From a virus (taxonomy: Duplodnaviria; Heunggongvirae; Uroviricota; Caudoviricetes), in the IMG/VR virus record IMGVR_UViG_2880395615_000002: a stretch of 64,000 nucleotides of DNA. The stretch is one strand, 5' to 3'. Made by a program: the position numbers. The first letter of the stretch is position 1, and every line of letters begins with the position of its first letter. This document shows positions 60,001-64,000 of this stretch, one piece after another.

Positions 60001-63000
60001 GGAACCATGGTGATGCTGTTAAGGAATGGTGAGTTTTCGAGAAGCCATTTGCAGAATAATCGATGCCATTGTAGTGCATATTCGCCACGGAATCCGGGGT
60101 CATACACCGCATGGCATTCAACAACGCTATGCCAGAAGTTACGCACTTCATGAACTCCAGCCAGCACTAATCCTTCGTAGATGCCGAGATATACCGCATC
60201 AGGCTTGATGTAGTATTTATCTCCACTGTCTACGATATTCCCCGTGTTTACCGGGTTGTTAAGGAATTCTGCAAGTTTCACCGGGTTATCGATGAGCTTT
60301 ATTTCCATCACTGCTCCGCAATGATTTTGATGGTTGTGGCAGTAAACGCCGCGCCATTCGACTGAATGGTTAGCGTGCTGCCATTTGTGGCAAGAAAGCC
60401 GTCTTTATCCACGCTGAAGAACGTAGCTAACAGGATGTTGTCGGTTGTTGTTGCCGAGTTGCGACTGCTTACTAGCGTGTCAGGAACAGAACCGGAGAAT
60501 GTTAGCTGCATTGACCTGTTGGCGGTTCCGCTGGGCCACGTCCCGACAATCGACAGCTTGAAGAACAAGGTTTTGTTCTCGTTGAACACAACCATCTTGT
60601 TGTTAACGGTGTCGAAGAATGGTGCCAACGTCCCGGATGACGGCGTAAGCGTTTTCAGCAGGCTAACAAGGTTGGTCGGCGCTGTCGGGATGGTTACTGA
60701 TACGCCAGAGTAAACAACCTCTGACTTCTTGCGCGTAGTGGCATACTCCAGAGCATTAATGCGCGTTTCATGGTCTGAAACCTGCGATTCCAGCGACTGA
60801 ACTCTGGTATCAAGCGATGCAATATCGCTTTCATTCAAGGCAATCAGTGGGTTTACGTCATGGAGTGGGCTCAACACCAGTCAGAGCCGCATGTACACGC
60901 AATAATCATGGTGAACGAAAGAAGCATTAATGGGCAAGCTGGCAAAATTGTCAGCAAATGGGTAACACTGGCAAACAATGCAATCCCATCAAATGTTCCT
61001 CCCCAGTGGGATCTAGATTTGAAAGGTCAGCAATATTCAGAGCCTACAAAGTGTATAGGTAAACAGATTGATTACATGGCAAAGCCCGAAACTAAGTTAA
61101 ATGACTTTAATAGAGAGGCGAGCAAGAGCCTATATGATTGGTCAGATGCCAACGTTTGGGGTTATTCGAATGGCTGGGCGCGGCATGAGATAAAAAAAGA
61201 AACACTTTCTATCACTGGCTTTCATGCTGTAAGACGCATACTAAAAGCCGTTCAGGCATCAAGGAAAGACAACTACAAAGCTAAGCGACAGATACAGCGT
61301 ACATTGAAACGACAAGACATAAATCGATCACCAATCACCCCGTTCCAAGCACCGTTAATTAGCAAACACGATTGGGATTTATCAGTGATAGCGGTCACCA
61401 AAGAGGCAGAGACAGAGCGCAGGGAATTACTATCCTCACAGATAATAAACTCGAACAAAGTACAAACCCACCCACTGTTAAGGATGTTAAGAAGAGCACG
61501 AGTGAGAGCATCCAGAGCCAAAAGAGAAAGCGGAGGTTATGACCATTACTACTAGTAGTGACAGATCGTGACAAGGCGGTGCAAAAAACGACCAATAATA
61601 AGAGAGATATGCCTGCCAAACCGCCAAAAGCGCGGAGCGCGGCAAACGCCGCGAGAGGCGCAAGAAGGCGAACCTATCCATTGAAACGGTCAGAAGCGCA
61701 TCGCGCTCGACGACCGAAGTCCCCACTAACACCGTTAACGAAAGATCAAAGTCTTAGAAAAAAATGACGTTTCTTTGATGGACTTCCATCCGTAAAAATC
61801 AAATTTTGAGAAAAAGTACTTATAGAAATTAATCGCTCTATAAGGATAAGTTGACGTTAGTTTAAAGTGATAAAACATTAAAGAAAAAACGTAAAATCAA
61901 ATACATAAAATAAGTCACCAAGGGATCATTTTCAGAAAACAACGTCAACGTAACGTCAACTCTGTAAGAACTTTTTTGGTCACTTTTTGGGTTGAATGTA
62001 CGTAAAAATCCCCAGCAGTGAAATTTGAGCGCGTAAGCACAATTCTGAGGGGCTTTTTGTCTGTAGGTTAGGCAGTGTAACTAACAATACAAGAAGTTAG
62101 CTCTGACTAACTATTTAATTAACTTTTCAATCTAATTGCGTTAGATATTATACCCTAACGCAATATTTTTAATTCAATAATGTCTGTAAATTGTTATTAC
62201 TTATAATTATACATTTAACTATATCTACATTGGCTGCTTCCAATTACTACTTACGTAACGGAATCTCGGATCCTCTGTTTTTGGCTCGGTATAATAAGAA
62301 TCATCAATAGTAAAGTTCGACGCTAATTTATCCCGAAGCCCACCTAAACGTTCAATGCTTGTTAGTTCGTTAGTAACATCCTTGAAAACGGTAGAAAATG
62401 CTTTATGTTGTTTAGACTTCATAAATTCAGGAGTGCTCAGTGCAAACTCTTTATCAGGCAAACCTGGAATACCCACGAGTCCTGTCAATGAATTTATACA
62501 TTTTATCAAAAAACTGCCTTGAATACCTTGATTTGATGGAACACCGTAGCTTCGTTTAATATCTCCAGATATTTTATCTAAATCACTTAGTAATTTTGTT
62601 ACTTTTTTATTTCCTGCACTTATCCCCGATTCATCGTAGGTCACATGAATCTCTCGGATTACATCTCGACACGTACGAAAATGATCATGTGTTCTAAGCT
62701 CTAAAGCTGAATTGATAACTTGAGAGACATTTCCTGTTTCGTTTGCTAGCCATGCAGAAAATATTGGTAAATCTAATGAAATAGTAGATGTGCGTCCATG
62801 ATCTACAATTTCAGATCTTGCAGTACTGATTTTATCAGACAACGATTGCACCAACCTTGCAGTATAATCATGACCAAAAGCACCTGTTTTTTTCATCCAA
62901 TGCAATTGATATGCATGCCTTATTGGATGAATAAATGAGTCTGCTTTAAAATGCTTAGCAATGACGCTGTAATAAATAGATTTATATGCCAACCAATTTA

Positions 63001-64000
63001 GCGATGCGATAAACATTTCAAGTGAACGAGTCATACCTCCTTTACCGCGAGTAGATTTTTCCCTTTCTAGTTCAAATTCACGCTCAGTATATTCATGTCC
63101 AGATGAACTCACTAGCTTCACATCGGTTGACCAGTACCCTTTCGTATCAGAAGCATCTGATAATTCATTAAAAATCGATGCACTTAGTTCACTATATTTC
63201 GCATATTCAGGAGTACCGGGCTGACCAAGCATTTTCATTGTTAAGTAATACACGCTAGACCGAAGATCCCATGTGCAAATCATATTCAGCTTAAGCATCT
63301 CTACAAGTTGCCTAAAATCATCGTCAACAAACTCCCCACCTCTAATTTCGGGAGTAATTTGCCGAGATTCAACTTGTGCTAACTGATCAAGTTCACTGAG
63401 TTGAAAATCACTTTCAGATACAAATTTAATAAAGTCAAATTTAGCAATGCGTTTATCTCTATATTCTTTTTTATAATTATCTACACAGATCAGGGTATCG
63501 TAAAAAAGTATCGCTTGAATAAGATTTTCAAAAGCGACTAAATCTCCGTTAATAGTATCTGGATTCTTAACAAGAATATCACCCAGTGTTCTTTCGACTG
63601 CTGTTAACGAAGCATTATCAATCAACGCATAAGACATTAAACTACCTCCATTAGATAATATCTAATAACATTATATTTCAATTAGGTTTAAAAATTGTGA
63701 TACTTATGACAGATTTGAGTGACATTTTATCAATCTACTGATTTTGATGGTGAAATTTATTAGAAGGTATGCGTAGTGCTACGGGAGAAATGAGAAACGC
63801 GCCCAGCAATGGCGCATCCTTTCTTAAGCAAGTTGGCTAGTATCTATAGCATCCATCCAATCAGGAGCAATTCCCAAACGTTCCGCGAACTCTTCATTGG
63901 TCACGTCTTCCATTGAGAGACTAGCCAGACAATCGTTAATTTCAGAATAGACGGGGGAAAGTAATAGGTATTCCCGCAACTCTTTCAGGTCTTTTTCCAT

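What the first reader, a model, noticed from the sequence alone, without database searches (positions are those of the whole stretch)
61770..64000. AT-rich cargo block at the right edge: 470-codon unknown gene preceded by a small ORF
Inside the intS-anchored remnant, composition drops sharply to AT-rich from about 61770 onward. The block contains a 470-aa minus-strand ORF with no recognisable motif and, upstream, a small ORF whose ATG sits at the window edge. Compact AT-rich gene pairs embedded in prophage remnants are typical of acquired defence or toxin modules.
Basis: seen in the sequence. Interest (0 to 1): 0.55.

Follow-up and report, generated by a model that had tools for sequence, protein, structure and literature searches.

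The report
Solo mobile gene, probable phage defence
The AT-rich block holds one intact, strongly conserved 470-codon gene of unknown family that travels alone between cargo slots of mobile elements, and is probably an unrecognised anti-phage gene; the small upstream ORF belongs to the carrier element, not to this gene.

Summary
GC falls to 35% from about 61770. A complete 470-aa ORF lies at 62225-63637 (-), and a complete 58-aa ORF at 63824-64000 (-).

The block is not part of the intS/P22-like remnant. It is the right half of a second, small integrative element (AlpA, rolling-circle Rep, serine recombinase) stacked at argW. That element is intact in about 200 other E. coli.

Only about 62097-63757 varies between these elements, and here it holds the 470-aa gene alone. 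Sibling elements carry SIR2-STAND, HNH, HEPN/RES-like, GTPase or ParA-like genes in the same slot. The 58-aa ORF is backbone and is absent next to homologues elsewhere, so there is no gene pair.

The 470-aa family is small (321 clusters), always about 470 aa, never fused, and under strong purifying selection (dN/dS about 0.1). It occurs as:
- a single integron cassette in Vibrio vulnificus;
- cargo in the Z/fun exclusion slot of P2-like prophages;
- a neighbour of Hachiman, AbiGi and PDC-S06;
- a solo islet between core genes.

It matches no Pfam, NCBIfam or PADLOC model. Fold searches gave no reproducible match; a PIN-like hit came from one model only.

Most likely it is a stand-alone defence gene. 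This is unproven.

The parts
56460..56534 (+). tRNA-Arg(CCT), argW: the integration anchor for the stacked elements
   Evidence: ARAGORN. The dsdC-yfdC/tRNA-Arg(CCT) locus is hotspot 11 in the E. coli defence-island survey (PMC10121019 supplement).
56660..60877 (.). intS plus a P22/Sf6-like remnant: a chimeric gp20'-acyltransferase' ORF, gp7, DUF2824 and a truncated tail-needle knob. This is a separate, older element and not the carrier of the finding.
   Evidence: Pfam hits; RefSeq annotation.
60860..61555 (+). Truncated rolling-circle Rep gene: the C-terminal 231 of 350 aa. It marks the left edge of the surviving part of the small AlpA/Rep/resolvase element.
   Evidence: 99% identical to residues 120-350 of the intact Rep in L034. 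Pfam REP_ORF2-G2P matches the intact protein.
61556..62096 (.). Conserved non-coding backbone downstream of Rep. Its AT-rich part (61770-62096, 33% GC) carries ACGTCAAC direct and inverted repeats at 61847-61961, a possible Rep origin.
   Evidence: 93-95% identical in six sibling elements up to 62062-62096. Repeats. The origin role is inference.
62097..63757 (-). Variable cargo segment of the element. Here it holds a single gene with its own upstream and downstream regions.
   Evidence: Similarity to sibling elements stops at about 62073-62100 and resumes at about 63758-63793.
62225..63637 (-). 470-aa ORF (WP_000119350.1): soluble, 53.4 kDa. A stand-alone mobile gene family and candidate single-protein defence gene.
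63645..63649 (-). Shine-Dalgarno GGAGG, 7 nt upstream of the ATG of the 470-aa ORF
   Evidence: Read from the sequence.
62135..62164 (.). Perfect 10-bp inverted repeat with a 10-nt loop, 60 nt downstream of the ORF stop. A T-run follows it on the + strand only.
   Evidence: the repeat finder I8. Any role is inference, for example blocking read-through from Rep.
63795..63819 (-). Terminator-like hairpin immediately after the stop of the 58-aa ORF, lying in conserved backbone
   Evidence: L001 14296-14320; conserved in alignment A5.
63824..64000 (-). 58-aa ORF (WP_000409798.1): a backbone gene of the element, transcribed divergently from the serine recombinase that lies just beyond the window. 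Function unknown, possibly a small HTH-like regulator.
   Evidence: Only weak WYL_3/excisionase-like similarity, below threshold.

Best explanation
The 470-aa ORF is the only cargo gene in the variable slot of a small AlpA/Rep/serine-recombinase integrative element. The left half of that element was deleted against the neighbouring intS-P22-like remnant at argW. The gene belongs to a compact family of soluble, roughly 470-aa, never-fused proteins that spread as a single autonomous gene between cargo slots of many kinds of mobile element.

The most likely function is a stand-alone anti-phage (exclusion or abortive-infection type) protein. In this reading, an N-terminal alpha/beta domain is the effector. 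It carries a family-invariant acidic cluster (D7, D32, E37/D, D53-D54) with R16 and R63, and may be a PIN-like metal-dependent nuclease or phosphodiesterase. The large helical C-terminal part (invariant P238, R240, P291, R324, and a long helical hairpin at 318-364) would then keep the effector off until an infection cue arrives.

Shown: the anatomy, the slot, the solo mobility, the purifying selection and the contexts.
Inferred: the defence role, the catalytic role of the acidic cluster and the sensor role of the C-terminal part.
For: Slot:
- The flanks are conserved and the middle is variable across sibling elements at the same locus.
- Alternative cargo is SIR2 + STAND NTPase (ThsA-like, 2e-12), HNH, HEPN/RES-like, GTPase and ParA-like.
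- The locus is the published E. coli defence hotspot 11; 376 of 973 occupied loci carry known systems.

Solo mobility:
- No neighbour is conserved across 31 genomes.
- In V. vulnificus the gene is a single cassette between two copies of a 123-nt array repeat.
- A 38%-identical member lies between tail sheath FI and fibre genes G/H of P2-like prophages, in 7 E. coli genomes. This is the Z/fun 'phage exclusion' region (PMC3091744).
- Other members lie in early regions of other prophages.
- In Aeromonas, Azospira and Dickeya the gene is a solo islet between core genes.

Defence neighbours: Hachiman in 4 Pseudomonas loci, PDC-S06, SoFic, and AbiGi plus a TerB/BrxC-D/DEAD cluster plus Mrr in Salmonella.

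A real, constrained gene:
- 252 homologues, and 321 clusters in 1.84 billion proteins, all about 440-485 aa.
- dN/dS of 0.07-0.10.
- It stays at 36% GC in several different host genera.
- Strong Shine-Dalgarno; no transmembrane segment.

Effector lead:
- Invariant D7, R16, G19 and D32, and E/D37, across members down to 22% identity.

Prior: 6 of 8 randomly chosen unknown loci in P4 defence hotspots protected against phages (PMC13586616).
Against: - There is no experimental evidence.
- There is no hit in PADLOC-DB v2.0.0. The accession is absent from the searched literature and from the DefensePredictor supplements.
- Many homologue contexts hold no known defence gene.
- Foldseek against the PDB found nothing.
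- No PIN signal came from Pfam on 64 members, from a PDB profile search, or from hhalign against Shigella VapC.
- The positions corresponding to the third and fourth PIN acids (D105, D124) are only 53-70% conserved.
- In two prophage types the gene sits beside DNA methyltransferases. That would also fit a counter-defence gene.
Confidence: 0.55

Rival explanations
1. It is a mobile accessory gene with a role other than defence: for example counter-defence, competition between mobile elements, an addiction-type toxin with a host-encoded or internal antidote, or a stress or host-interaction factor. It rides in the same cargo slots because those slots accept any non-essential gene.
For: - P2 variable loci also carry partition systems and toxins, according to PMC9122126.
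- In L058 and L065 the gene lies next to phage DNA methyltransferases.
- Several homologues are solo islets with no defence neighbours.
- No known defence model matches.
Against: - Every identifiable alternative occupant of the same E. coli slot has defence-type domains.
- Placement in the Z/fun slot and next to Hachiman, AbiGi and PDC-S06 recurs across distant taxa.
- At 470 aa it is large for a typical anti-defence protein (general knowledge).
Confidence: 0.27
2. It is a two-gene toxin-antitoxin or defence module made of the 58-aa ORF and the 470-aa ORF.
For: The two ORFs are adjacent, on the same strand, and lie within or next to the AT-rich region.
Against: - The 58-aa ORF is conserved next to unrelated cargo in about 200 E. 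coli.
- It is missing from two sibling elements.
- It is absent near homologues of the 470-aa gene in 31 other genomes.
- A 186-bp gap and a terminator-like hairpin separate the two ORFs.
- The conserved backbone begins between them, at about 63758.
Confidence: 0.03
3. It is a core function of the carrier element or of a phage, such as replication, regulation, packaging or a structural role.
For: PHROG 13435 contains it, so it has been seen in predicted prophages. It lies next to Rep and a recombinase.
Against: - It is replaced by unrelated genes in sibling elements that keep the same backbone.
- No copy exists in 50,697 sequenced phage records for either variant.
- It occupies non-essential slots in P2-like prophages.
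- It occurs with no mobile-element genes at all in Aeromonas and Azospira.
Confidence: 0.05
4. It is a chance or decaying ORF in AT-rich junk DNA.
For: The DNA is AT-rich and no family name exists for the ORF.
Against: - Homologues are full length at 55-85% identity across several proteobacterial classes.
- dN/dS is about 0.1.
- There is a strong Shine-Dalgarno.
- The AF2 model is confident: pLDDT 84.5, pTM 0.87.
Confidence: 0.01

Closest known systems
[quoted passage not shown]
   Same: Both are short variable loci between conserved backbone genes, with fast turnover of single genes or small systems, many of them anti-phage. A member of this very family sits in the Z region of P2-like prophages in E. 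coli.
   Different: The carrier in the window is a different, unclassified small element (AlpA, rolling-circle Rep, serine recombinase, own tyrosine integrase) and is itself a deletion remnant. The protein is unrelated in sequence to Z/Fun, Old and Tin, as far as PADLOC and Pfam show.
Single-gene anti-phage cassettes of chromosomal and mobile integrons (bioRxiv 10.1101/2024.07.02.601686, 10.1101/2024.07.02.601719, 10.64898/2026.03.17.712381)
   Same: An 81%-identical homologue is a one-gene cassette in the V. vulnificus repeat array. Like those cassettes, it is compact and needs no partner gene.
   Different: None of the systems named in the sections I read (HD, NUDIX, HEPN-AbiU2, a small transmembrane protein, DNA-sulfur modification-associated) matches this protein. 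This family has not been tested.
PIN-domain nucleases (VapC type) and single-protein defence or abortive-infection effectors built on them
   Same: - The N-terminal beta-alpha domain has an invariant Asp at the end of strand 1 (ALIDN).
- A conserved Glu lies about 30 residues later.
- GGxFxD and T-W-D motifs occur at PIN-like spacing.
   Different: - There is no sequence or profile similarity.
- The match was not reproduced with the better model.
- The third and fourth acids are not strictly conserved.
- The most conserved residues (D32, D53/54, R16, R63) are not the canonical PIN set.
- There is no antitoxin partner.
E. coli defence-island hotspot 11, dsdC-yfdC at tRNA-Arg(CCT) (PMC10121019)
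   Same: It is the same chromosomal locus. Several mobile elements stack there and often bring defence systems.
   Different: That survey counted known systems only. It recognised neither the 470-aa gene nor the commonest cargo of the same slot, an 821 + 330 aa pair.

Membership tests
PIN-domain nuclease (VapC-like) | Three-layer alpha/beta/alpha PIN fold | tested here: inconclusive
PIN-domain nuclease (VapC-like) | Four conserved acidic active-site residues | tested here: inconclusive
   D7 is 100% conserved and E/D37 100%. The candidate third and fourth acids, D105 and D124, are 53% and 70% conserved.
PIN-domain nuclease (VapC-like) | Match to PIN sequence profiles | tested here: not met
   No PIN family appeared among 64 members scanned at E <= 5. 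A PDB profile search found no VapC. hhalign against Shigella VapC gave probability 0.2%.
Two-gene toxin-antitoxin or defence operon (58-aa + 470-aa) | The two genes co-occur across genomes | tested here: not met
   tblastn of the small protein found nothing in 31 homologue loci. The small ORF occurs with other cargo in about 200 E. coli.
Two-gene toxin-antitoxin or defence operon (58-aa + 470-aa) | Operon-like coupling | tested here: not met
   A 186-bp gap contains a terminator-like hairpin. The backbone/cargo boundary falls between the two genes.
Known anti-phage systems (PADLOC-DB v2.0.0) | HMM match to a catalogued defence protein | tested here: not met
   Zero families at E <= 1 for both ORFs. 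Systems described after 2023 could not be checked.
Mobile-element defence-hotspot cargo | Sits in a variable slot between conserved backbone genes, with alternative occupants | tested here: met
   At least seven cargo types lie between Rep and the recombinase at the same locus.
Mobile-element defence-hotspot cargo | Alternative occupants and neighbours of homologues include defence genes | tested here: met
   Alternative occupants: SIR2-STAND/ThsA-like, HNH, HEPN/RES-like. Neighbours of homologues: Hachiman, PDC-S06, SoFic, AbiGi. P2 Z region.
Mobile-element defence-hotspot cargo | Protects against phage when expressed | not testable with these tools
   This needs cloning and phage challenge.
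Integron gene cassette | A single ORF bounded by array repeats (attC-type) | tested here: met
   Met for the V. vulnificus homologue only: 123-nt repeat copies at L042 7849-7971 and 9429-9551 flank the gene at 8001-9413, within a 15-copy array. The window copy is not in an integron. The attC identity of the repeats is inferred.
HEPN RNase | Conserved Rx4-6H motif | tested here: not met
   R240 is invariant, but H246 is replaced by N, S or Q in most members.
Phage structural or replication proteins | Similarity to annotated phage protein families | tested here: not met
   The only PHROG match is 13435, 'unknown function'. tblastn against 50,697 phage records found nothing.

The most novel reading that the evidence does not exclude
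The 470-aa protein would found an uncatalogued single-protein anti-phage defence family. Its fold has no reproducible counterpart in the PDB. It is spread across Proteobacteria and reaches a Clostridium plasmid and a spirochaete MAG. It is carried by integrons, by the P2 Z-region, by other prophages and by a previously undescribed small AlpA/Rep/resolvase element, whose cargo slot is itself a new defence hotspot in E. coli.
Probability: 0.45. Interest if true: 0.65.

Novelty: new member of a known kind. Interest (0 to 1): 0.5.

Why it matters
If the gene protects against phages, it would add a compact one-gene system present in all 316 matching complete genomes, which are of the O157:H7/O55:H7 lineage. 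That would bear on phage-based control and typing of this pathogen. The protein has a conserved acidic centre and no known fold match, so its mechanism would be worth studying.

The carrier also matters. The slot between Rep and the serine recombinase in this small argW element holds at least seven different cargoes. Most have no match in the PADLOC, Pfam or NCBIfam libraries I searched, so it is a ready-made shortlist for finding further systems.

Tried and rejected
- Pfam, NCBIfam and PADLOC on both ORFs gave nothing usable. PHROGs gave only 'unknown function' families.
- A PDB profile search with the whole family returned archaeal PCNA at E 0.004 over residues 321-448. I rejected it: that stretch is mostly helical in both models, whereas PCNA is known to be beta-rich.
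- The HEPN Rx4-6H idea (R240...H246) fails because H246 is not conserved.
- A HAD DxDxT motif at strand 1 is absent by inspection (the motif is DNATL), and the Foldseek probabilities were weak.
- I searched for a conserved partner gene around 31 genomic and 10 viral loci and found none.
- I searched for the small ORF or the recombinase near homologues and found none. The small ORF has no match in plasmids.
- The literature gave nothing: the accession is not in the full-text library or the DefensePredictor supplements, and a search for 'argW + defense systems + hotspot + Escherichia coli' found nothing.
- My recollection that the Sakai argW element is SpLE2 was wrong. It is Sp16.
- The afdb50 fold library was unavailable.
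- I found no obvious recombination-site repeats at the two cargo junctions.
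Full report
**1. What is in the sequence**

GC falls from about 47% to 30-36% at about 61770 and stays low to about 63750. The interval 61770-64000 is 35.3% GC against 48.0% for the window. Only 17 of 618 same-size windows fall below 36%.

A 470-aa ORF runs at 62225-63637 on the minus strand, and a 58-aa ORF at 63824-64000. The ATG of the small ORF is the last three bases of the window.

The stretch is 100% identical to E. coli O55:H7 and O157:H7 chromosomes. RefSeq annotates both ORFs there as complete hypothetical proteins, WP_000119350.1 and WP_000409798.1.

**2. The block is not part of the intS remnant**

Extending into the matching O55:H7 record (L001) gives this order:
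- argW, intS;
- P22/Sf6-like ejection and tail-needle remnants;
- a 215-aa 'hypothetical' gene;
- the 470-aa gene;
- the 58-aa gene;
- a divergent 208-aa serine recombinase;
- a DUF4942 fragment;
- the csc sucrose genes and dsdX.

The 470-aa gene occurs in only 315-316 of 5,426 complete E. coli genomes, all at 99% identity or more. The 58-aa ORF has roughly 83%-identical copies in about 200 other genomes. Opening six of those shows an intact small element at the same locus:
- a tyrosine integrase;
- a 250-aa protein;
- AlpA (PF05930);
- a 63-aa protein;
- an HTH_17 protein;
- a 128-aa protein;
- a 350-aa rolling-circle Rep (PF23343);
- a variable segment;
- the 58-aa ORF (present in four of the six);
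- the resolvase-type recombinase (PF00239);
- the DUF4942 fragment.

The window ORF 60860-61555 is residues 120-350 of that Rep at 99% identity. In the O157/O55 lineage the left half of the element has therefore been deleted against the tail-needle remnant.

**3. Boundaries of the cargo**

Pairwise BLAST and two junction alignments define the limits. The left backbone runs from 60837 to 62062-62096, which includes the AT-rich non-coding stretch 61770-62096. The right backbone resumes at 63758-63793.

The variable segment is thus about 62097-63757 and contains only the 470-aa gene. A terminator-like hairpin lies directly after the 58-aa ORF, inside conserved backbone (63795-63819). GGAGG sits 7 nt before the ATG of the 470-aa gene. 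The gene therefore looks like a self-contained unit.

**4. What else occupies the slot**

Sibling elements carry, in the same position:
- an 826-aa SIR2 + STAND NTPase protein (PADLOC ThsA 2e-12; Pfam SIR2_2, nSTAND);
- an 821 + 330 aa pair with no matches (the commonest);
- a 395-aa HNH protein;
- a 354-aa ParA-like ATPase;
- a 268-aa GTPase plus a 152-aa protein;
- a 227 + 313 aa pair, the latter weakly HEPN/RES-like.

The chromosomal locus, dsdC-yfdC at tRNA-Arg(CCT), is hotspot 11 of the E. coli defence-island survey. There, 376 of 973 occupied loci carried known systems (PMC10121019 supplement).

**5. The protein family**

A search of 5.8 billion proteins found 252 relatives. The best 120 are 54-100% identical and about 470 aa long. 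They come from Dickeya, Vibrio, Salmonella, Shewanella, Aeromonas, Pseudomonas, Undibacterium, Chromobacterium, Azospira and many metagenomes.

An exhaustive profile search of 1.84 billion cluster representatives found only 321 (E <= 0.001). Every near-full-length hit is 432-485 aa and none is longer, so I saw no fusions to other domains. More distant members occur on a Clostridium kluyveri plasmid (34% identity) and in a spirochaete MAG (33% identity).

dN/dS against the Salmonella, Dickeya and V. vulnificus copies is 0.10, 0.10 and 0.07. The gene stays at about 36% GC in all four of its enterobacterial, Vibrio and Aeromonas hosts. The protein is soluble, 53.4 kDa, pI 5.9, with no hydrophobic segment.

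Across 64 members down to 22% identity:
- invariant residues are D7, R16, G19, D32, L132, P238, R240, P291 and R324;
- near-invariant residues include N8, E37, L44, F45, D53/D54, Y55, R63, F67, W123, S128, W215, R/K219, Y223 and G432.

**6. Genomic contexts of relatives**

No neighbouring gene is conserved across 31 genomic loci. The small ORF and the recombinase are absent from all of them. The contexts are:
- a one-gene cassette bounded by two copies of a 123-nt repeat, within a 15-copy same-strand array in V. vulnificus, consistent with the chromosomal integron;
- a CP4-57-like island in Salmonella, beside AbiGi, a TerB/BrxC-D/DEAD-helicase cluster and Mrr;
- a position immediately beside Hachiman HamA/HamB in four Pseudomonas loci, beside PDC-S06 in another, and near SoFic in another;
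- solo islets between core genes in Dickeya, Aeromonas (recD | gene | glyoxalase) and Azospira;
- prophages.

The prophage case is the most telling. A 38%-identical member lies on the opposite strand between tail sheath FI/tube FII and fibre genes G/H of a P2-like prophage. That prophage is 94-96% identical to Yersinia phage P37, fiAA91-ss and pro147. This is the P2 Z region, where Z/Fun ('phage exclusion') sits and where foreign genes are commonly found (PMC3091744). The variant is in 7 complete E. coli genomes, while 929 have the flanks with other cargo.

Other members lie after the replication genes, next to DNA methyltransferases, in two further prophage types. Neither variant is present in 50,697 deposited phage genomes.

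**7. Structure**

What remains is a motif-level resemblance:
- ALID7N at the end of strand 1;
- E37 in the second helix;
- GGxFxD105 after strand 4;
- T122-W-D124 in the next strand.

This spacing is like that of VapC. However, D105 and D124 are only 53% and 70% conserved, and the best-conserved residues (D32, D53/54, R16, R63) are not the canonical PIN set. I therefore treat 'PIN-like metal-dependent nuclease' as a lead, at roughly one chance in three. As far as tested, the fold as a whole has no reproducible solved counterpart.

**8. Interpretation**

The anatomy, the solo mobility and the selection are shown directly. The defence role is inferred from three observations:
- a slot whose other occupants have defence-type domains;
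- repeated placement in classic exclusion or defence positions (P2 Z region, integron array, next to Hachiman, AbiGi and PDC-S06);
- the high validation rate of unknown genes in comparable hotspots (6 of 8; PMC13586616).

I put this reading at about 0.55. The main rival is a different accessory role, such as counter-defence or competition between elements. The methyltransferase neighbours and the many contexts without defence genes keep it open, at about 0.27. The gene-pair reading is contradicted.

**9. Comparison and novelty**

The finding works like the P2/P4 hotspot cargoes and the single-gene integron defence cassettes. It is not a member of any catalogued system that I could test. PADLOC-DB is the 2023 release, so later systems are unchecked.

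I rate it a new member of a known kind: a candidate new one-gene family in a newly delineated hotspot of a small element. Interest is moderate (0.5). Many such candidates exist, but this one sits in a major pathogen lineage, is easy to test, and has an unassigned fold.

Noticed in passing
window 1-56459 (integrase 55095-56339, minus strand): Left of argW the window does not match O55:H7 RM12579. A lambdoid prophage (integrase, lambda exonuclease, Ea22-like genes, an IS3) abuts the tRNA. Only 8 complete E. coli genomes share this junction, all five of those listed being O157 (for example 644-PT8, 2571). At least three mobile elements are therefore stacked at argW here.
   Followed up: partly
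window 58028-59164 (minus strand): The ORF annotated 'phage DNA ejection protein' is a chimera. Residues 12-217 match the P22 injectosome translocase. Residues 230-343 match the last third of an Acyl_transf_3 (O-antigen acetylase-type) domain. The junction coincides with the 28-31% GC dip at 57800-58400. It looks like a deletion fusion inside the intS remnant.
   Followed up: partly
L033:3352-6806 (E. coli E118 and, judging by the spread sample, many other genomes): The commonest cargo in the same Rep-recombinase slot is an 821-aa + 330-aa gene pair with no Pfam or PADLOC match. It is another untested candidate system.
   Followed up: partly
L038:6760-9441 (E. coli D10): The recombinase module is duplicated: an intact 213-aa copy, then a 263-aa unknown gene, then a partial second recombinase. 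This suggests that cargo modules can stack next to the serine recombinase.
   Followed up: no
window 61847-61961: The conserved non-coding backbone downstream of Rep contains ACGTCAAC motifs: two direct copies 11 nt apart and an inverted copy about 90 nt upstream, forming 17-20 nt imperfect inverted repeats. This may be the Rep origin.
   Followed up: no
L060:7014-8432 and seven E. coli genomes (e.g. NZ_CP027366.1 2379056-2380956): A second, 38%-identical member of the same family is present in E. coli as cargo of the Z/fun region of P2-like prophages. A 64-aa ORF lies just upstream of it in the three viral-contig copies (L060-L062).
   Followed up: partly
L045 (Aeromonas), L041 (Dickeya), L039 (Salmonella), L042 (V. 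vulnificus): The gene keeps 36-37% GC in every one of these hosts. Synonymous sites are close to or at saturation between copies, so the low GC appears to be a maintained property of the gene rather than a sign of very recent transfer alone.
   Followed up: partly
window 63824-64000 versus L033, L034, L035, L038 copies: The 58-aa backbone ORF keeps its length and its MEKDLKxLREYLLL and TNEExAERLGIxPDWM blocks. It changes quickly elsewhere: 13-16 non-synonymous against 8-10 synonymous codon differences. This suggests relaxed or diversifying selection.
   Followed up: partly
L007/L009/L013:~5741-9713 and L016/L030:~11523-13476: In several Pseudomonas loci the family member is flanked by large uncharacterised proteins. 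One is a 1321-aa protein with a weak PDC-M02A match at its N-terminus. The other is a 650-aa protein that begins with a PIN-like FIDTN motif. Neither is in PADLOC as a system.
   Followed up: no
window ~37000-39000 and ~45400-46700: Two further AT-rich blocks (33-39% GC) lie inside the prophage part of the window. I did not examine them.
   Followed up: no
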